From the NCBI GenBank assembly GCA_948735595.1, contig CAPXSA010000005.1, positions 24,325-88,324 on the forward strand: a DNA stretch of 64,000 bases, read 5' to 3'. The translations under genes were made by a program, and so were the position numbers. Position 1 is the stretch's first letter. Every line of letters starts with the position of its first letter. This document shows positions 14,099 to 34,079 of this stretch, one piece after another. This DNA is from an uncultured Clostridia bacterium (lineage in GTDB: Bacteria > Bacillota > Clostridia > TANB77 > CAG-508). The notes beneath the pieces are model-generated. The model was given only the letters and a program-made list of their open reading frames with translations, searched no databases and was not told the DNA's origin.

Positions 14099-14127
14099 TT
14101 GACAATTTACATAAAAAGTTATATAAT
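14099..14127 (+). promoter_or_regulatory. Consensus sigma-A promoter (TTGACA-17-TATAAT) driving the Spo0A_C orphan, followed by palindrome ATTGGC-aag-GCCAAT
   Basis: Hexamers at 14099-14104 and 14122-14127. AGGAGAG RBS before the ATG at 14176. Confidence 0.7.
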
Positions 14128-14175
14128 AATCAACAGATTGGCAAGGCCAATTAATACAAAGAAGGAGAGATAAGC

Positions 14176-14679
14176 ATGTCTAATGAGCGGAAATTGGACC
14201 TGAGCAAGTCATTGATGGAGTTAGCTGAGGAGGGGTGGACTCTTCAGGAGGTACTTGAGGCAATCGGCCTTCAGCCGGTTGCCAAGCAGGAACCTGAGGA
14301 TCACGAGATGCCTGAGAAGGTGGAACTTACCAAACGGATTACCGGCATCCTCCAGGAAATCGGCGTTCCGGCTCACATCAAGGGATACCAGTACCTTCGG
14401 GATGCAATCCAAAGAGCGGTGGAGAACGGGAAGACCATCAACACCGTGACCAAGACCCTGTATCTTGCTGTGGCGAGGGAGTACCAGACCACCCCCTCCA
14501 GGGTGGAAAGGACCATCCGCCACGCTATCGAGGTTGCATGGAGCCGTGGCAATGTGGAAACTTTGGAGAGCTACTTTGGCTACACGGTTAACAGAAACAA
14601 GGGTAAGCCTGCCAACAGCGAGTTTATCGCATTGATCGCCGACAAGCTCCGCTTGGAGGGCTATGGCTCCGAGCAGTAA
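14176..14679 (+). CDS. Stand-alone Spo0A C-terminal (DNA-binding effector) domain protein lacking a receiver domain; strongly G+C-rich relative to the host
   Basis: [86 protein letters not shown] matches the Spo0A_C signature. Codon usage (CTG, GAG, CGG, GCC) is unlike the neighbouring genes. Confidence 0.85.
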
Positions 14680-14698
14680 TTATCTTTTCCCGCAAAGG

Positions 14699-14726
14699 GC
14701 CCGAGCATTTGCTCGGTTCTTTTTTG
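14699..14726 (+). terminator. Intrinsic terminator of the Spo0A_C gene
   Basis: CCGAGCA-tt-TGCTCGG followed by TTCTTTTTT. Confidence 0.75.
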
Positions 14727-14816
14727 CCTTTTTTGAACAATCTTAATGATATACTTGTATTTTACGAAAAAAACGGATATAATAAGCACGAAGAAAAAGA
14801 GAGGAGTTGAACTAGA

Positions 14817-15101: not shown

Positions 15102-15120
15102 TAAATTATAATATGCAAAG

Positions 15121-15245
15121 AATATATAATATCGCTTGACCTTGCTGTCCGTTGCTTTCATATGTTAAAGACAAATAAAAGAAAGCAACGGAAGGCGCTC
15201 GGCTATGCCTCGCCTTGCGTGGTCTACGCTTTTATTATATATATC
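15121..15245 (+). repeat. Dispersed structured repeat, family 2, copy 1 (inside the gatC-gatA spacer)
   Basis: CCTTGCTGTCCGTTGCTTTC-loop-GAAAGCAACGGAAGGCGCTCGG..CCTCGCCTTGCG.GG.CTAC is nearly identical to 27959-28095. The 11-bp stem CCGTTGCTTTC/GAAAGCAACGG is conserved while the loop differs, and the flanks are AT-rich inverted repeats. Confidence 0.8.
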
Positions 15246-29510: not shown

Positions 29511-31961
29511 ATGATGTATAAATTTACAGGACGTAGCGAAAAGGCATTAGAACTTGCAGCAGAGCTAGCAGCCGAGTTTGGGCATAATTACATAGGAACA
29601 GAACACATCCTATATGGCTTAACTAAAGAAGGCACAGGTGTTGCAAGCAAAGTGCTAGAATTGCAAGGAATTACTGCAGATAAAATTGCAGAAGAAATAG
29701 AGATTTTAATTGGTAGAGGAGAAGAAATTGAAGACGTAGCAGACATTGGATTTACTCCTCGTAGTAAGAGAATTATTGAAAATGCTTTTATTGAAGCAAG
29801 AAAATTAGGTTCAGAATTTATTGGAACAGAGCATTTATTAATTGGAATTATGCGTGAAGGGGATAGTGTGGCAGTTCGTATTATGATGGACTTAAAAGCT
29901 GATCCACAAAAGTTATATAATGAAATTATCAAAGTAATTAATGAAGAAGATAATACGGCAATCAATGCAAAACAAGGAAAGAGTAAAGCACGAGGAAGCT
30001 ACAATCAAACACCAACTTTAAACCAATTTGGAACTGATTTAACAAAACGTGCACAAGAGGGAAAGCTAGACCCAGTTATTGGTAGGAAAGAAGAAATTGA
30101 AAGAGTAATCCAAATTCTATCAAGAAGAACAAAAAATAATCCATGTTTAATAGGAGAACCAGGTGTTGGTAAAACAGCAGTAGTAGAGGGCTTAGCAGAA
30201 AAAATTGTGGCAGAAGATGTTCCTGAAATGTTAAAAAGCAAAAGGGTGGTTAGCTTAGATATTGCTAGTATGGTAGCTGGTGCAAAATATCGTGGAGATT
30301 TTGAAGAAAGAATTAAAAAATGCTTAGAAGAAGTCAAAAAGGCAGGAGATGTAATCCTATTTATTGATGAAGTTCATACAATTGTAGGGGCGGGTTCAGC
30401 AGAAGGTGCAGTGGATGCAGCTAATATTCTAAAACCGCTATTAGCAAGAGGAGAGGTACAAGTAATTGGAGCTACTACTCTAAATGAATATCGTAAGTAT
30501 ATTGAAAAAGATAGTGCATTAGAAAGAAGATTTAGTCCAGTCAATGTAGGAGAGCCATCCTTGGAAGAAACAACTCAAATACTAAAAGGAATTCGTGATA
30601 AATATGAAGCACATCATAATGTAAAAATTACAGATGAAGCTATTAAGGCATCTGTTGAATTATCTACTAGATATATCAATGATAGATTTTTGCCTGATAA
30701 AGCAATTGATTTAGTAGATGAAGCGGCTTCGCGTGTAAAAATGAGGATTTATACCCAACCAGAGTCTATTAAAAAATTGGAAGATAAGATTGCAGAACTA
30801 GACAAAGAGAAAGAAGATGCTATTCGCTCACAAGATTTTGAAAAGGCAGCAAAGCTTCGCGATAAAGTAAAAGAAGAAAAAGAAAAGTTAGCAAAAGAAA
30901 AGGAAAAATGGCGTAACAAAAATACAAAGAGTGTGACAACTTTAACAGAAGAAGATATTGCAGAAGTAGTATCTAGTTGGACTGGTGTGCCAGTTCAAAA
31001 GTTAACACAAAGTGAAAATGAGAAATTAAAGAATTTAGAAACTATTTTACATCAAAGAGTAGTGGGACAAAATGAGGCAATAGAAGCAATTTCAAAAGCA
31101 ATTAGAAGAGGAAGAGTAGGACTAAAAGATCCTAATCGTCCAATTGGTTCTTTCCTATTCTTAGGACCAACAGGTGTAGGAAAAACAGAACTTTCTAAAG
31201 CATTAGCAGAAGCTTTATTTGGTAATGAGAATGCAATGATACGTGTAGATATGTCTGAATATATGGAACCACATTCTATTTCCAAATTAATTGGTTCTCC
31301 TCCAGGGTATGTAGGATTTGATGAAGGTGGACAATTAACGGAGAAGATTAGAAGAAAGCCATATTCTGTTATCCTATTTGATGAAGTAGAAAAGGCACAT
31401 CCTGATGTTATGAATATGTTACTCCAGATTTTAGATGATGGAAGATTAACAGATGCACAAGGTAGAACAGTAAACTTTAAAAATACAGTCATTATTATGA
31501 CGTCTAACATTGGTGCTAGAATGATTACTGACAAGAATACATTAGGATTTAGTGTTAGCACAAATCAAAAAGAAGAAGCACAAAAAGAATATGAAAATAT
31601 TAAAAAAGATGTTATGGGAGAACTTAAAAAGCAATTTAGACCAGAATTGATTAACCGTATTGATGAAATTATTGTATTCCATAAACTAACAGATGAGGAT
31701 GTCAAACAAATTATTGAGATTATGTTAAATCAATTACAAAAACGTATGAAAGAACAAAATATTGAATTAGAAATTGATGAAAGTGTAAAAGATTTAATTG
31801 CGAAAAAGGGCGTAGATACTAATTATGGTGCAAGACCTTTGAAAAGAGCAATTCAAAGTGTATTAGAGGATAGAATTGCAGAAGAGATTTTAGATGGAAA
31901 CATTAAGCCAAATCAAAAGGCAAAGGTGCTATCTAGAGAGGAAGAAGTTGTTGTGGAATAA
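29511..31961 (+). CDS. clpC: ATP-dependent Clp protease ATP-binding subunit ClpC
   Basis: 816 aa with Clp_N repeats, two AAA+ modules ([16 protein letters not shown]) and a UVR linker. Confidence 0.97.
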
Positions 31962-32013
31962 AGAATAAACAACACAGAAAACAAAGACAACATAAAAAGT
32001 TTACAAAAAAGTA

Positions 32014-32042
32014 TTGACAAATGAAAAATAGAAGAGTATAAT
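32014..32042 (+). promoter_or_regulatory. Consensus sigma-A promoter (TTGACA-17-TATAAT) with no protein gene downstream
   Basis: Hexamers at 32014-32019 and 32037-32042. Confidence 0.75.
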
Positions 32043-32220
32043 AGAAAACATAGTTGCCTAAGAGGTAACAAAATACTTCCGTTAAGGAAGAATACATTGA
32101 AAAGGAGAGAATAGCTTATGCGATGTCGGAACAGCTTTTCTATGAAAAATTCGGAAAAGATGTGACCTGCACCGGCGGCCGCCTAGGCCTGACCTGGGCT
32201 AGCTGAAAGGAGTCGTAACA

Positions 32221-32250
32221 TGCGGAGGTACCCAACTGGTTTCAAGTAGC
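32221..32250 (+). repeat. 30-nt internal motif, copy 1 (TGCGGAGGTACCCAACTGGTTTCAAGTAGC)
   Basis: 24/30 identical to copy 3. Confidence 0.8.
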
Positions 32251-32291
32251 AAAATAACGGCACCACAGTAAAGTGAAGGAGGGGCGAAAAA

Positions 32292-32321
32292 TGCCTCGGT
32301 TTACAAGTGGATTCCTGTAGC
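32292..32321 (+). repeat. 30-nt internal motif, copy 2 (TGCCTCGGTTTACAAGTGGATTCCTGTAGC)
   Basis: 26/30 identical to copy 3. Confidence 0.8.
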
Positions 32322-32457
32322 TGTAGCCCCTTGGGGGCCAAAACGAACAGCAAAAAAATCTTTTTCGCTACATATATGGGGCCCATCTAGAGCGCTGATG
32401 CGCCAAGAGGATGTATGCCTGCAAAAATATTAGCGGAAGAAAGGTGTGAGTGTGACA

Positions 32458-32487
32458 TGCCGCGGTTTCCAACTGGATTCCAGTAGC
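32458..32487 (+). repeat. 30-nt internal motif, copy 3 (TGCCGCGGTTTCCAACTGGATTCCAGTAGC)
   Basis: Contains the hairpin ACTGG-att-CCAGT. Confidence 0.8.
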
Positions 32488-32520
32488 CTGAACAACAGAC
32501 CCGAGCTATATCTCGAAAAA

Positions 32521-32554
32521 CGGGCGCCCTATTTGGGGCGCCCGAGTCTTTTTT
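32521..32554. terminator. Strong G+C-rich bidirectional terminator
   Basis: CGGGCGCCC-tatttg-GGGCGCCCG followed by AGTCTTTTTT on the plus strand. TTTTTCGAG follows the stem on the minus strand, downstream of the CDF gene. Confidence 0.85.
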
Positions 32555-32595
32555 ATATAAAAACATATAATCAATTACTATAATAACACAACTAA

Positions 32596-33453
32596 TTAGA
32601 TTGGTTCTACATGAACAATCGCACGATAAATTTTATCTAGTCCAGAAACACTTAATTCTAATTGATCAGCTAATTCATGACTTTTGAAGGTACTCATATT
32701 TCCATCTACATAAATGGTTAATACAACAACATATTGATGCCCAACAGGAGTAGAAGAGATTTCATCTAACTTTTGAATTTCTTTATAACTATGGGCTAAA
32801 TCCATAATAATTTCTTTTGTTTTTTCATCAAGTGAAATATCCATCAAAACATTATAGCTTTCCATAAAAATTTTTACACCTGTTAAACAAATCCAAATAG
32901 AAATTCCAATTCCCACAATACCATCAAACCAGTAAATATTGGCGAAGGTAAGTAAAATAGAGATTAAAGTAAATGTTGTTACAATACAGTCATTACGATG
33001 GTCATTTCGATTAGCTTCTAGTAAAATATTTTCAAATTTTTTAGCTAGGCGATTTGTATATAAAAACAAGGCTAATTTGACAGCAATTGTAATAAGGCAA
33101 ACAATTACTAAAAACCAAGAAAAGATTAATTCGCTTCCGTAAATTAAGGTATAAATAGAGTCATAAAGCAGTTTAAAAGCAATAACTATCATAGAAATAC
33201 TAATAAACATAGAAAAAATATATTCAGCTTTTCCATGACCAAAATTATGACTTTTATCTTGTGGCTCACTAGCAATTTTGTTACCAATAAAGGTCATTAA
33301 AGAAGCAAAAATATCACCAGCACTGTTTGCAGCATCTGCAATCATTGACTGGCTCTTAAAAAGAAAACCTACCGTTCCTTTGATAATTAATAAAAATAAA
33401 TTTCCTAAAATTCCAAATAATCCAGCTTTTTTAGTTTGTTCAAAGCGATTCAT
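32596..33453 (-). CDS. Cation diffusion facilitator (CDF) family metal efflux transporter
   Basis: 285 aa with six TM segments. ..SMIADAANSAGDI.., ..HNFGHGKAE.. and a C-terminal cytoplasmic domain are typical of CDF. Confidence 0.9.
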   Translation of the reverse strand: MNRFEQTKKAGLFGILGNLFLLIIKGTVGFLFKSQSMIADAANSAGDIFASLMTFIGNKIASEPQDKSHNFGHGKAEYIFSMFISISMIVIAFKLLYDSIYTLIYGSELIFSWFLVIVCLITIAVKLALFLYTNRLAKKFENILLEANRNDHRNDCIVTTFTLISILLTFANIYWFDGIVGIGISIWICLTGVKIFMESYNVLMDISLDEKTKEIIMDLAHSYKEIQKLDEISSTPVGHQYVVVLTIYVDGNMSTFKSHELADQLELSVSGLDKIYRAIVHVEPI

Positions 33454-33617: not shown

Positions 33618-34079
33618 ATGTTTTGTAATAAATGTGGAAAAGAAATAAATGAAGATTCAATATTTTGTAATTATTGCGGAAATAAATTAAAAACTAAAGA
33701 AACAAGACAAGAAAATGCTAAACCAAATTTGAAAGAAGAGATAAAAGAAGCATGGAGAAGTGGGCCAGAGAGAGCAGAAAAAGAGAGAATTGAAAAAGAA
33801 CAAAGAGAATATTTAAAGCAATTAAAAGAAACAAAAGAAGAAGTACAGAAAAATTTAAAACCAAAAGATGGAAAATATCATGTTGTGTTGATAAAGAGTA
33901 AGGCTAGATATTTGACAGGATATAAAATATGTGATAATCAATATGCTATTGAATTAGAGGATATATTGGAAATGATACAAGGTAAAGGATATGAAATAAT
34001 AGATGTAAAAATGATAGGGATAGAAGAAGGTTCTGTATATGGTACGACCAGAGTAGAAACATTAGTGATGTATAAGTAG
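33618..34079 (+). CDS. Zinc-ribbon domain protein, hypothetical
   Basis: N-terminal CNKCG..FCNYCG, a charged linker and a small C-terminal globular part. AAAGGAG RBS. Confidence 0.65.
   Translation: MFCNKCGKEINEDSIFCNYCGNKLKTKETRQENAKPNLKEEIKEAWRSGPERAEKERIEKEQREYLKQLKETKEEVQKNLKPKDGKYHVVLIKSKARYLTGYKICDNQYAIELEDILEMIQGKGYEIIDVKMIGIEEGSVYGTTRVETLVMYK

What the first reader, a model, noticed from the sequence alone, without database searches (positions are those of the whole stretch)
32014..32554. About 500-nt G+C-rich, ORF-free transcription unit after clpC with a thrice-repeated 30-nt motif: candidate large ncRNA of unknown class
A perfect TTGACA-17-TATAAT promoter (32014-32042) is followed by about 500 nt with no credible ORF and G+C far above the surrounding DNA. 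The unit ends at a very strong terminator (CGGGCGCCC/GGGCGCCCG plus a T run). It is packed with local helices, for example GTTGCCT/AGGTAAC, CTTCC-gtta-GGAAG, and GCTGT..GCCCC-ttg-GGGGC..ACAGC. A 30-nt module occurs three times, each copy preceded by ..CA/AA (32221 TGCGGAGGTACCCAACTGGTTTCAAGTAGC; 32292 TGCCTCGGTTTACAAGTGGATTCCTGTAGC; 32458 TGCCGCGGTTTCCAACTGGATTCCAGTAGC). I could not match it to RNase P (no GGAAAGTCC P4), tmRNA, SRP RNA, 6S RNA or any riboswitch I know. It is not upstream of a gene, because the next gene is convergent. High G+C in an AT-rich genome plus defined transcript ends is the classic signature used to find large structured RNAs such as OLE, GOLLD, ROOL and raiA.
Basis: partly seen in the sequence, partly recalled or inferred. 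Interest (0 to 1): 0.75.

Follow-up and report, generated by a model that had tools for sequence, protein, structure and literature searches.

The report
Array of tiny phage-type peptide genes
The supposed large non-coding RNA is a short, strongly promoted transcript carrying three nine-codon genes for near-identical peptides, and the same module sits among the early genes of large gut phages, so it is an undescribed family of mini-genes whose function is still unknown.

Summary
The physical observation holds. There is a perfect sigma-70 promoter, about 500 nt at 47-54% G+C in a 30.5% G+C window, a strong terminator, local hairpins and a motif repeated three times. No Rfam family matches.

The "30-nt motif" is not an RNA module. 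Each copy is a Shine-Dalgarno site, ATG, eight sense codons and TAG: MRRYPTGFK, MPRFTSGFL and MPRFPTGFQ.

Close strains of the same mouse-gut Clostridia lineage carry 0, 1, 2, 3 or 4 such mini-genes at this site. The copies differ by synonymous changes and by one in-frame 3-nt indel.

The only homologues found elsewhere are promoter-to-terminator units with one to three mini-genes in large phage contigs (32-56% G+C). They encode [FY]-x-[ST]-G-F-x, always one residue before the stop. The stop is mostly TAG followed by C. At least two of these phages show signs of TAG recoding.

Only the peptide is conserved between phages and the bacterium. No RNA sequence or structure is shared.

Best reading: a phage-derived array of translated mini-genes. 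Inferred mechanism (about 0.4): the nascent peptide hampers release-factor action at a weak UAG-C stop. Rival (about 0.3): a free peptide acting in trans. This is a new variant of a known kind, with no function shown.

The parts
32014..32042 (+). Sigma-70-type promoter, TTGACA-17 nt-TATAAT
   Evidence: 12 of 12 consensus matches. 93-97% conserved in the strain variants L127, L128 and L132.
32053..32069 (+). 5'-proximal hairpin 1 (GTTGCCT-AAG-AGGTAAC), a likely 5' mRNA stabiliser
   Evidence: Predicted in the minimum-energy fold. Two base pairs change on both sides between strains, T-A to C-G.
32076..32090 (+). Hairpin 2 (CTTCC-GTTAA-GGAAG)
   Evidence: All 5 pairs are invariant in 4 strain variants; only the loop varies.
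32118..32165 (+). Conserved leader stretch. It could be a 15-codon ORF (MRCRNSFSMKNSEKM; SD GGAG at 32104-32107), and it also forms hairpin 3. An overlapping 27-codon ORF at 32123-32206 is an alternative. Coding status is not established.
   Evidence: ORFs listed. The stretch is 89-95% identical among strains, but neither frame shows a clear synonymous pattern. The hairpin has one compensatory pair, C-G to U-A.
32206..32249 (+). Mini-gene 1: SD AAAGGAG (32206-32212), ATG at 32220, MRRYPTGFK, TAG at 32247-32249, followed by C
   Evidence: Identical in strain L128 although the spacer in front of it is only 58% identical and has indels.
32275..32320 (+). Mini-gene 2: SD GAAGGAGG (32275-32282), ATG at 32291, MPRFTSGFL, TAG at 32318-32320, followed by C
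   Evidence: The L128 copy differs by TTT to TTC and TTC to TTT (both synonymous) and by L to V.
32320..32351 (+). GC hairpin that starts in the stop codon of mini-gene 2 (GCTGT AGCCCC-TTG-GGGGCC ... ACAGC)
   Evidence: In other strains the equivalent is uAGCCCCuucgGGGGCu, directly on the stop codon.
32352..32439 (+). Structured GC-rich spacer of the repeat module. It is duplicated in the 4-copy strain.
   Evidence: 74-87% identical among strains.
32440..32486 (+). Mini-gene 3: SD AAAGGTG (32440-32446), ATG at 32457, MPRFPTGFQ, TAG at 32484-32486, followed by C
   Evidence: Orthologues in L128 and L132 read MPKRFPSGFL, which involves an in-frame AAA insertion and CCA to CCG (synonymous).
32521..32554 (+). 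Intrinsic terminator (10-bp GC stem plus T run). It is bidirectional, so it also ends the convergent cation-efflux gene.
   Evidence: 94-100% conserved among strains. It replaces the plain 38-55-nt bidirectional terminator of strains that lack the element.

Best explanation
The unit is a self-contained expression cassette of phage origin. Its order is a consensus promoter, a hairpin-protected leader, three separately translated nine-codon mini-genes and an intrinsic terminator.

Shown by comparison: selection preserves the peptide core aromatic-x-(Thr/Ser)-Gly-Phe-x, placed exactly one residue before the stop codon. It also preserves a Shine-Dalgarno site and a stop codon that is nearly always UAG, usually followed by C. 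The module number varies from 0 to 4 among close strains.

Inferred, not shown: the peptides act in cis while still attached in the ribosome that makes them. A penultimate Phe, an upstream aromatic residue and a poor UAG-C termination context would slow or block RF1-catalysed release. A strongly expressed array would then hold terminating ribosomes and RF1. In phages that read TAG as a sense codon, this would favour suppressor-tRNA decoding of UAG. The bacterial copy would be a captured, moron-like version.
For: Translation signals
- All three copies have an SD, an ATG and an in-frame TAG.

Variation within the host lineage
- Strains carry 1, 2, 3 or 4 modules at the same site.
- Copies differ by synonymous changes (TTT/TTC, CCA/CCG, GGA/GGT), by conservative replacements and by one exactly 3-nt indel.
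- Spacers diverge more and carry indels.

Homologues found by peptide-level scans
- L085 has 3 mini-genes.
- L092, L101/L104, L113-L116 and L136 have 2 each.
- Single mini-genes in intergenic DNA occur in L093, L095, L099, L097/L109 and L139.
- Most that were inspected sit between a consensus-like promoter and a terminator-like hairpin.
- Second and third copies in a locus were not part of the search pattern, so they are independent confirmation.

Signature of amino-acid selection
- For Gly and Phe, codon positions 1-2 are invariant and position 3 has about 1 bit of entropy.
- Ser is coded by both AGY and TCN.
- The same peptide is kept across phages from 32% to 56% G+C.

Anchoring and stop codon
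- N-terminal length varies (M, MK, MR, MRR, MPR, MPKR, MTM), but the distance from the motif to the stop is fixed.
- Stops: TAG 22 and TAA 2; L136 and L139 add 1 TAG and 2 TGA.
- C follows the stop in most cases. None of the 13 TAG stops of long host ORFs in the window is followed by C.

Context
- No protein gene is shared by all the loci, which points to a universal target.
- Phage links to TAG recoding: an amber-suppressor tRNA lies 1 kb from the L093 mini-gene. An L115 sigma-like gene has 4 in-frame TAGs spanned by a single PHROG alignment.

Precedent
- In the hexapeptide MsrDL (MYLIFM), the penultimate Phe clashes with the GGQ motif of RF1/RF2, and Tyr2 stacks on 23S rRNA (PMC10314930).
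- PepNL arrest at a stop codon is relieved by a tRNA that reads the stop (PMC11890864).
Against: - No experiment or expression data exist. Stalling, RF1 involvement and even translation are inferred from sequence.
- Two members end in TAA and two in TGA, so the device cannot be strictly RF1-specific.
- A bacterium that constitutively expresses an RF1 or ribosome trap from a perfect promoter should pay a cost. Yet the cassette is kept, under apparent purifying selection, in several strains.
- Signs of TAG recoding were seen for only two phage lineages. A third has a weak 67-nt link to a code-15 phage. The other loci are too short to judge.
- Phage Phass-1, a code-15 phage, has no such mini-gene.
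- The search patterns fixed GGN-TTY and the stop class, which limits what could be found.
Confidence: 0.4

Rival explanations
1. The mini-genes are translated, but the released 7-10-residue peptides are the active agents in trans. They could be a ligand or inhibitor of a conserved host protein. They could be an antitoxin-like or decoy peptide that the host makes constitutively and phages copy to neutralise a defence. They could also be a phage signal that the host jams. The TAG stop would then only tie production to the standard-code phase of infection.
For: - Peptide-level conservation, multiple copies and strong promoters suit high peptide output.
- The variable positions (x, the last residue and the N-terminus) and the presence/absence and copy-number polymorphism among strains resemble arms-race loci.
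- A constitutive host copy is easier to reconcile with a harmless free peptide than with a ribosome trap.
- The element co-occurs with a phage-moron-type zinc-ribbon gene two genes away.
Against: - No receptor, modifying enzyme or exporter is conserved next to the units.
- The peptides have no signal sequence.
- The preference for TAG and for C after the stop is not explained.
- The same core is kept in phages of hosts from 32% to 56% G+C, which demands a very widely conserved target.
Confidence: 0.3
2. These are classical minigenes of the lambda bar type. Very short ORFs with slow termination cause peptidyl-tRNA drop-off. This loads peptidyl-tRNA hydrolase and sequesters tRNAs, damping host translation early in infection.
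For: - Very short ORFs with strong SDs and a weak stop context (C after the stop), expressed early from strong promoters in phages.
Against: - Drop-off toxicity depends on the last codon and on length, not on peptide sequence. Here the last codon varies while the peptide core is invariant.
- A host would not be expected to keep a toxic array.
Confidence: 0.1
3. The mini-ORFs are sensory leader peptides of a ribosome-mediated attenuator. Stalling or read-through at the last mini-ORF would control the terminator. In the bacterium this would control antisense transcription into the convergent cation-efflux gene.
For: - Mini-gene 3 ends 35 nt before the terminator. Read-through of its TAG would carry ribosomes across the terminator hairpin.
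- MsrDL-type precedents couple termination arrest to terminator bypass.
Against: - No alternative anti-terminator pairing is evident.
- There is no co-directional downstream gene in the window.
- In the phage loci, the next gene where inspected has its own promoter.
- Arrays of 2-4 sensors in series are not expected.
Confidence: 0.07
4. This is the first reader's view: a large structured non-coding RNA whose repeated 30-nt motif is an RNA element or protein-binding site, with the tiny ORFs being incidental.
For: - High G+C and defined ends.
- Hairpins are kept among four strain variants: 92% of cells are paired against 40-52% when partners are slid, and 3 pairs carry compensatory changes.
- Fold z-score is -3.2.
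Against: - There is no Rfam match.
- The element is absent from sister strains and species.
- Nothing outside the mini-ORFs is alignable with the phage units.
- Within the motif, variation follows codon structure: third positions vary, serine switches between six codons, and there is a 3-nt indel.
- The candidate hairpin inside the motif is not kept between the copies (direct reading).
Confidence: 0.05

Closest known systems
MsrDL (MYLIFM) and other very short termination- or drug-dependent arrest leader peptides (ErmCL, ErmDL, TnaC, PepNL)
   Same: - A 6-10-residue ORF with its own SD.
- Conserved residues counted from the stop codon.
- Aromatic residue near the N-terminus and Phe in the penultimate position, as in MsrDL, where Phe5 blocks the GGQ motif of RF1/RF2.
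- PepNL shows that arrest at a stop can be relieved by a tRNA that reads the stop.
   Different: - Those peptides sit singly in front of a gene they regulate. Here 1-4 copies form a stand-alone unit that ends at a terminator with no regulated gene.
- The sequence motif is different ([FY]x[ST]GFx).
- No inducer is known.
- MsrDL prefers UAA, whereas this family prefers UAG-C.
Lambda bar minigenes and artificial toxic minigenes
   Same: - Phage-borne, very short translated ORFs with an SD.
- Their effect arises at termination or drop-off rather than from a protein product (own knowledge; one search lists reviews).
   Different: - Bar ORFs are 2-3 codons, with no conserved peptide.
- Their effect depends on the last tRNA. 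Here the peptide core is conserved and the last codon varies.
Peptide-mediated macrolide/ketolide resistance mini-genes (E-peptide MRLFV, K-peptide MRFFV; own knowledge)
   Same: - A cis-acting short peptide ending in Phe plus a hydrophobic residue.
- It works only on the ribosome that translates it and needs high expression.
   Different: - Those were selected in the laboratory or are cryptic in 23S rRNA, and they are pentapeptides.
- No natural arrays are known.
- No antibiotic link was tested here.
mccA, the 7-codon gene of microcin C (own knowledge)
   Same: - A natural, functional gene of 7 codons followed closely by a terminator hairpin.
   Different: - MccA ends in Asn and needs the adjacent MccB adenylyltransferase.
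- Neither feature is present here.
Arbitrium AimP and Phr-type phage/bacterial signalling peptides
   Same: - Short peptides with a conserved C-terminal core and variable specificity positions.
- Encoded by phages and expressed early.
   Different: - Those are cut from roughly 40-residue secreted precursors and sit next to their receptor gene.
- Here the ORF is the peptide, there is no signal sequence, and there is no conserved neighbour.
Large structured ncRNAs found as GC-rich intergenic regions (OLE, GOLLD, ROOL, raiA)
   Same: - A GC-rich, ORF-poor intergenic transcript with defined ends in an AT-rich genome.
- ROOL and GOLLD are also often phage-borne (own knowledge).
   Different: - There is no covariance-model match.
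- There is no structure conserved beyond the strain level.
- The conserved elements are coding.

Membership tests
Known structured RNA families (OLE, GOLLD, ROOL, raiA, 6S, tmRNA, RNase P, SRP, riboswitches) | Match to the family covariance model at or above the gathering score | tested here: not met
   No match at gathering score anywhere in the 64-kb window. With permissive thresholds, only terminator-like hits at or below 29 bits.
Large structured ncRNA (generic) | Homologues in other lineages that share a secondary structure supported by covariation | tested here: not met
   Absent from the orthologous site in relatives. The phage homologues share only the mini-ORFs. Covariation is seen only within four strain variants, for local hairpins.
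Translated small ORF under purifying selection | SD plus start plus in-frame stop in every copy; substitutions biased to synonymous or conservative; indels in multiples of three | tested here: met
Translated small ORF under purifying selection | Direct evidence of translation (ribosome profiling, mass spectrometry) | not testable with these tools
   No expression data are available for this uncultured organism.
Regulatory leader (arrest) peptide / attenuator | A co-directional downstream gene whose expression depends on the leader ORF | tested here: not met
   A terminator is followed by a convergent gene in the window. The phage units inspected end in terminators and are followed by genes with their own promoters.
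Regulatory leader (arrest) peptide / attenuator | Ribosome stalling at a defined codon | not testable with these tools
   This needs toeprinting or ribosome profiling.
Lambda bar-type minigene | A 2-3-codon ORF whose effect depends on the last sense codon/tRNA, not on the peptide | tested here: not met
   The ORFs are 7-10 codons, with an invariant peptide core and a variable last codon.
Microcin C (MccA) precursor | A heptapeptide ending in Asn plus an adjacent mccB-like adenylyltransferase | tested here: not met
   C-terminal residues are K, L, Q, V, T, I or A. The neighbours are ClpC and a cation-efflux protein.
RRNPP/arbitrium-type signalling peptide | A secreted precursor with a signal sequence and an adjacent TPR receptor gene | tested here: not met
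   The ORF equals the 7-10-residue peptide. No neighbouring protein is conserved across loci.
Mobile element (MITE/IS) or degraded gene | Terminal inverted repeats with a target duplication, multiple genomic copies, or a frame-shifted match to a protein family | tested here: inconclusive
   Only a 10-nt A/T-rich inverted repeat flanks the unit. There is no second copy in the window. There is no blastn match in the phage or plasmid collections. Whole-genome copy number could not be checked.

The most novel reading that the evidence does not exclude
The mini-gene arrays are the missing 'code-switch helper' of stop-codon-recoding phages. The nascent peptides [FY]x[ST]GFx would jam release-factor action at a weak UAG-C stop (TGA-C in some phages). 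A highly expressed early transcript would then titrate RF1 and terminating ribosomes, and let the phage suppressor tRNA win at in-frame TAG codons. The chromosomal arrays of 0-4 copies in a gut Clostridia lineage would be a captured version that tunes amber read-through or interferes with such phages.
Probability: 0.2. Interest if true: 0.9.

Novelty: new variant of a known kind. Interest (0 to 1): 0.7.

Why it matters
Genes of 7-10 codons are invisible to gene callers and to RNA-family searches. Here such genes form a family conserved from 32% to 56% G+C phages to a bacterial chromosome, so they almost certainly do something.

If the peptides act on terminating ribosomes, they would be the first natural stand-alone arrays of arrest-type peptides. 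They would also offer a concrete, testable answer to an open question: how TAG-recoding phages overcome competition from host RF1.

If the peptides act as free molecules, they would be the smallest directly encoded phage/host effectors known apart from microcin C.

In either case the finding is a caution. Not every GC-rich, ORF-free island in an AT-rich genome is a structured RNA.

Tried and rejected
- **Synthetic construct.** The unit holds NotI, SfiI, AvrII, StuI, NheI, KpnI, ApaI, XbaI, AfeI, SacII and two NarI sites. It also occurs in independent mouse-gut assemblies and a MAG. It has 14 palindromic hexamers in 547 nt, against a window average of 16 per kb (about 8.7 for that length), which is a modest excess. 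Rejected.
- **Rfam.** Nothing at gathering or permissive thresholds.
- **blastn and nhmmer.** No match for the element in the phage and plasmid collections, or in 80 ClpC loci of related species.
- **Strict nucleotide motif.** It gave 0 hits in 185,579 species genomes. It gave one chance hit inside a GC-rich coding sequence in metagenomes (L086).
- **Chance hits of the peptide patterns inside long ORFs.** L087, L094, L096, L098, L100, L106, L110, L111, L134, L135, L137, L138, L140 and L141 were discarded. L079 (MPIYLTGFQK, upstream of a Lachnoanaerobaculum clpC) does not fit the anchoring rule and was treated as chance.
- **Phage Phass-1 (code 15).** Scanned in full; it has no mini-gene.
- **Conserved partner gene around the phage units.** None across lineages.
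- **RNA hairpin inside the motif (ACTGG-ATT-CCAGT).** Present only in copy 3 and not kept in copies 1 and 2 (direct reading).
- **A hairpin that includes the stop codon.** Common in the host variants but not universal.
- **'RYLTGYK' in the neighbouring zinc-ribbon protein as a mimic of the peptide.** Not conserved in homologues.
- **tmRNA idea for L097.** Only a 30-bit acceptor/T-arm match, below threshold.
- **Code-4 or code-15 ORF coverage of the short phage loci.** Uninformative.
- **The 15- or 27-codon leader ORF.** Conserved as sequence, but with no clear coding signature.
Full report
**1. What is in the sequence**

Downstream of clpC (29511-31961; the operon is ctsR-mcsA-mcsB-clpC) lies a 634-nt spacer before a convergent cation-efflux gene (32596-33453).
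- A 12/12 TTGACA-17-TATAAT promoter at 32014-32042, and a 10-bp GC terminator with a T run at 32521-32554.
- G+C up to 0.54, against 0.305 for the window.
- Several local hairpins.
- A motif present three times, with none expected by chance.
- No Rfam family matches at curated or permissive thresholds.
- The fold energy is only moderately unusual (z = -3.2 on the + strand, -2.2 on the - strand).

**2. The repeated motif is a set of three mini-genes**

Each motif copy begins one base earlier than reported, with an ATG. Each ATG sits 7-10 nt after a Shine-Dalgarno sequence (AAAGGAG, GAAGGAGG, AAAGGTG). Each runs nine codons and stops at TAG followed by C.
- 32220: MRRYPTGFK
- 32291: MPRFTSGFL
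- 32457: MPRFPTGFQ

The differences between copies include synonymous ones (CCT/CCG, AGG/CGG, GGT/GGA) and conservative ones (Y/F, T/S). The candidate RNA hairpin inside the motif exists only in copy 3.

**3. It is natural, recent and variable in copy number**

The same ClpC occurs on 13 contigs. These include a MAG (GCA_948691615.1) and a mouse-gut metagenome assembly. The element is identical or nearly so on four of them, so the pile of restriction sites is coincidence.

The element is missing in related organisms.
- It is absent downstream of clpC in the 80 most similar ClpC loci, including the closest species at 86% ClpC identity.
- Strains whose efflux protein is 95-98% identical have only a 38-55-nt spacer with a plain bidirectional terminator (L117-L120, L131).

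Other strains carry versions of the element.

| Strain loci | Spacer length | Mini-genes |
|---|---|---|
| L127, L129 | 411 nt | 1: MPRFPGGFL |
| L132, L133 | 578 nt | 2: MPRFPGGFL, MPKRFPSGFL |
| window | 634 nt | 3 |
| L128, L130 | 833 nt | 4: MRRYPTGFK, MPRFTSGFV, MPKRFPSGFL, MPKRFTSGFL |

Across these variants:
- The promoter, leader, mini-genes and terminator are 79-100% identical.
- Spacers drop to 58-87% and carry indels.
- Inside the mini-genes the changes are synonymous (TTT/TTC twice, CCA/CCG), conservative, or an in-frame AAA insertion.
- All host copies end in TAG.
- The local hairpins of the leader are kept, with three compensatory pairs. RNA structure is therefore part of the design, plausibly for stability, but only at strain level.

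**4. Relatives elsewhere are phage units that share only the peptide**

The strict nucleotide motif found nothing in 185,579 species genomes, and only a chance hit in metagenomes. Patterns written at the peptide level and run on IMG/VR found real homologues.

| Locus | Contig size | Mini-genes |
|---|---|---|
| L085 | 140 kb | MRRFPTGFV, MYYSGFT, MYPTGFI |
| L092 | 172 kb | MFTSGFL, MYWSGFV |
| L101/L104 | 143/176 kb, 32% G+C | M(TM)FHSGFV, MRFTTGFT |
| L113-L116 | 98-176 kb | MKY[YF]TGFT, MYYTGF[VT] |
| L136 | 126 kb, 56% G+C | MREYPTGFI, MYTSGFI |
| L093, L095, L099, L097/L109, L139 | various | one intergenic mini-gene each |

- In L085 the unit runs from a consensus promoter to a terminator.
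- Hits inside long ORFs were discarded as chance.
- In the multi-copy loci, the extra copies were not required by the search pattern.
- Over 24 mini-genes the core is [FY]-x-[ST(G)]-G-F-x-stop.
- For Gly and Phe, codon positions 1-2 never vary and position 3 carries about 1 bit. Ser uses AGT, AGC, TCT and TCA. The motif is always one residue from the stop, while the N-terminal extension varies from 0 to 4 residues.
- Nothing else aligns between the bacterial and phage units. No protein gene is common to the loci.

**5. The stop codon**
- Stops are TAG in 23, TAA in 2 and TGA in 2.
- C follows the stop in most cases. That holds for 10 of the 16 TAG stops even after removing the loci found with a TAGC-requiring pattern.
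- In the window's own long ORFs the stops are TAA 36, TAG 13 and TGA 5. None of the 13 TAG stops is followed by C.
- In the host variants the stop is often the first strand of a GC hairpin, but this is not universal.

**6. Link to TAG-recoding phages**
- L093 has a tRNA with anticodon CTA 1 kb from its mini-gene.
- L115 has a sigma-factor-like ORF with four in-frame TAGs. It matches phrog_5767 in a single stretch (residues 30-376) that spans all four TAGs.
- L085 has a weak nucleotide match to phage Phass-1 of the 'code 15 clade' (PMC10607447). Phass-1 itself lacks mini-genes.
- The other loci are too short to judge.
- The literature on recoded phages does not describe such ORFs. It notes that the factors driving the code switch are incompletely known (bioRxiv 10.1101/2021.08.26.457843).

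**7. Mechanism**

Shown: a promoter-to-terminator cassette of separately initiated mini-ORFs under amino-acid-level selection. It is shared by large phages and one bacterial lineage.

Inferred: the fixed distance to the stop, the UAG-C preference, the lack of any partner gene and the breadth of hosts all point to the translating ribosome as the target. There are two precedents.
- In MsrDL (MYLIFM), the penultimate Phe clashes with the GGQ motif of the release factors, and Tyr2 stacks on 23S rRNA (PMC10314930).
- PepNL arrests at a stop codon and is released by a tRNA that reads the stop (PMC11890864).

I therefore favour a cis-acting effect of the nascent peptide on termination, at about 0.4. 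An attractive consequence would be titration of RF1 in TAG-recoding phages, at about 0.2.

The main rival, at about 0.3, is a free peptide acting in trans. It fits the constitutive host copy better but does not explain the stop-codon features. Bar-type minigenes, an attenuator and a structured ncRNA are less likely, for the reasons given under the rival explanations.

**8. Origin of the bacterial copy**

A second GC-rich cassette of the same design lies in the window at 14100-14735. It has a perfect promoter, a 5' hairpin, an AAGGAGAG SD and a terminator. It encodes a Spo0A_C-only protein whose relatives lie on uncultured gut phage contigs. A zinc-ribbon gene related to temperate-phage moron genes co-occurs with the mini-gene element. 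Together with the presence/absence pattern, this suggests capture of phage early-gene cassettes by the host.

**9. Verdict**

The element is a previously undescribed family of conserved mini-gene arrays. I rate it a new variant of a known kind (translated mini-ORFs and arrest peptides), of real interest, with the function still to be tested.

Noticed in passing
window 14100-14735: A second GC-rich (0.50-0.585) stand-alone cassette. It has a perfect TTGACA-17-TATAAT promoter, a 5' hairpin, an AAGGAGAG SD, a 167-aa ORF (14176-14679) consisting of only a Spo0A C-terminal DNA-binding domain (PF08769, E 3e-43), and a terminator. Its closest relatives (50-66% identity) are on uncultured gut phage contigs.
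   Followed up: partly
window 33618-34079: A 153-aa zinc-ribbon protein gene is present only in the strains that carry the mini-gene element (window, L127, L132; split in L128). It is absent from all strains without the element. Its C-terminal 80 residues resemble roughly 98-aa proteins from the integrase-repressor (moron) region of temperate phages bIL312, Lj928 and phiFN37.
   Followed up: partly
window 15110-15240: The spacer between gatC and gatA is a hairpin-rich stretch with higher G+C (tccgttgctttc ... gaaagcaacgga, followed by a GC-rich segment). It has no Rfam match.
   Followed up: no
L121 3448-4737 (site orthologous to window 31962-32595): In another strain (efflux protein 94% identical), the clpC/efflux-gene spacer holds a 429-aa FGE-sulfatase-like gene instead. 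The site is therefore an insertion hot spot.
   Followed up: no
L115 9134-10300 (+): A phage sigma-factor-like gene (phrog_5767, E 8e-23) has four in-frame TAG codons. This implies that synthesis of this sigma factor needs amber suppression.
   Followed up: partly
L097 4366-4412 (also L109): A tmRNA-like acceptor/T-arm minihelix (30 bits, below the gathering score of 47). It lies about 190 nt after a mini-gene (MYTSGFT) and directly in front of an array of five tRNA genes.
   Followed up: partly
L085, L092, L113-L116 (after most early genes): A repeated motif, GTTAGC..GCTAAC followed by CGCCCGGGC, recurs downstream of gene after gene in these related large phages. It may be a terminator or processing signal, or a regulatory repeat.
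   Followed up: no
window 31962-32013: No terminator is visible between the clpC stop codon and the element's promoter. In this strain, transcription of the clpC operon probably runs into the mini-gene unit as well.
   Followed up: no
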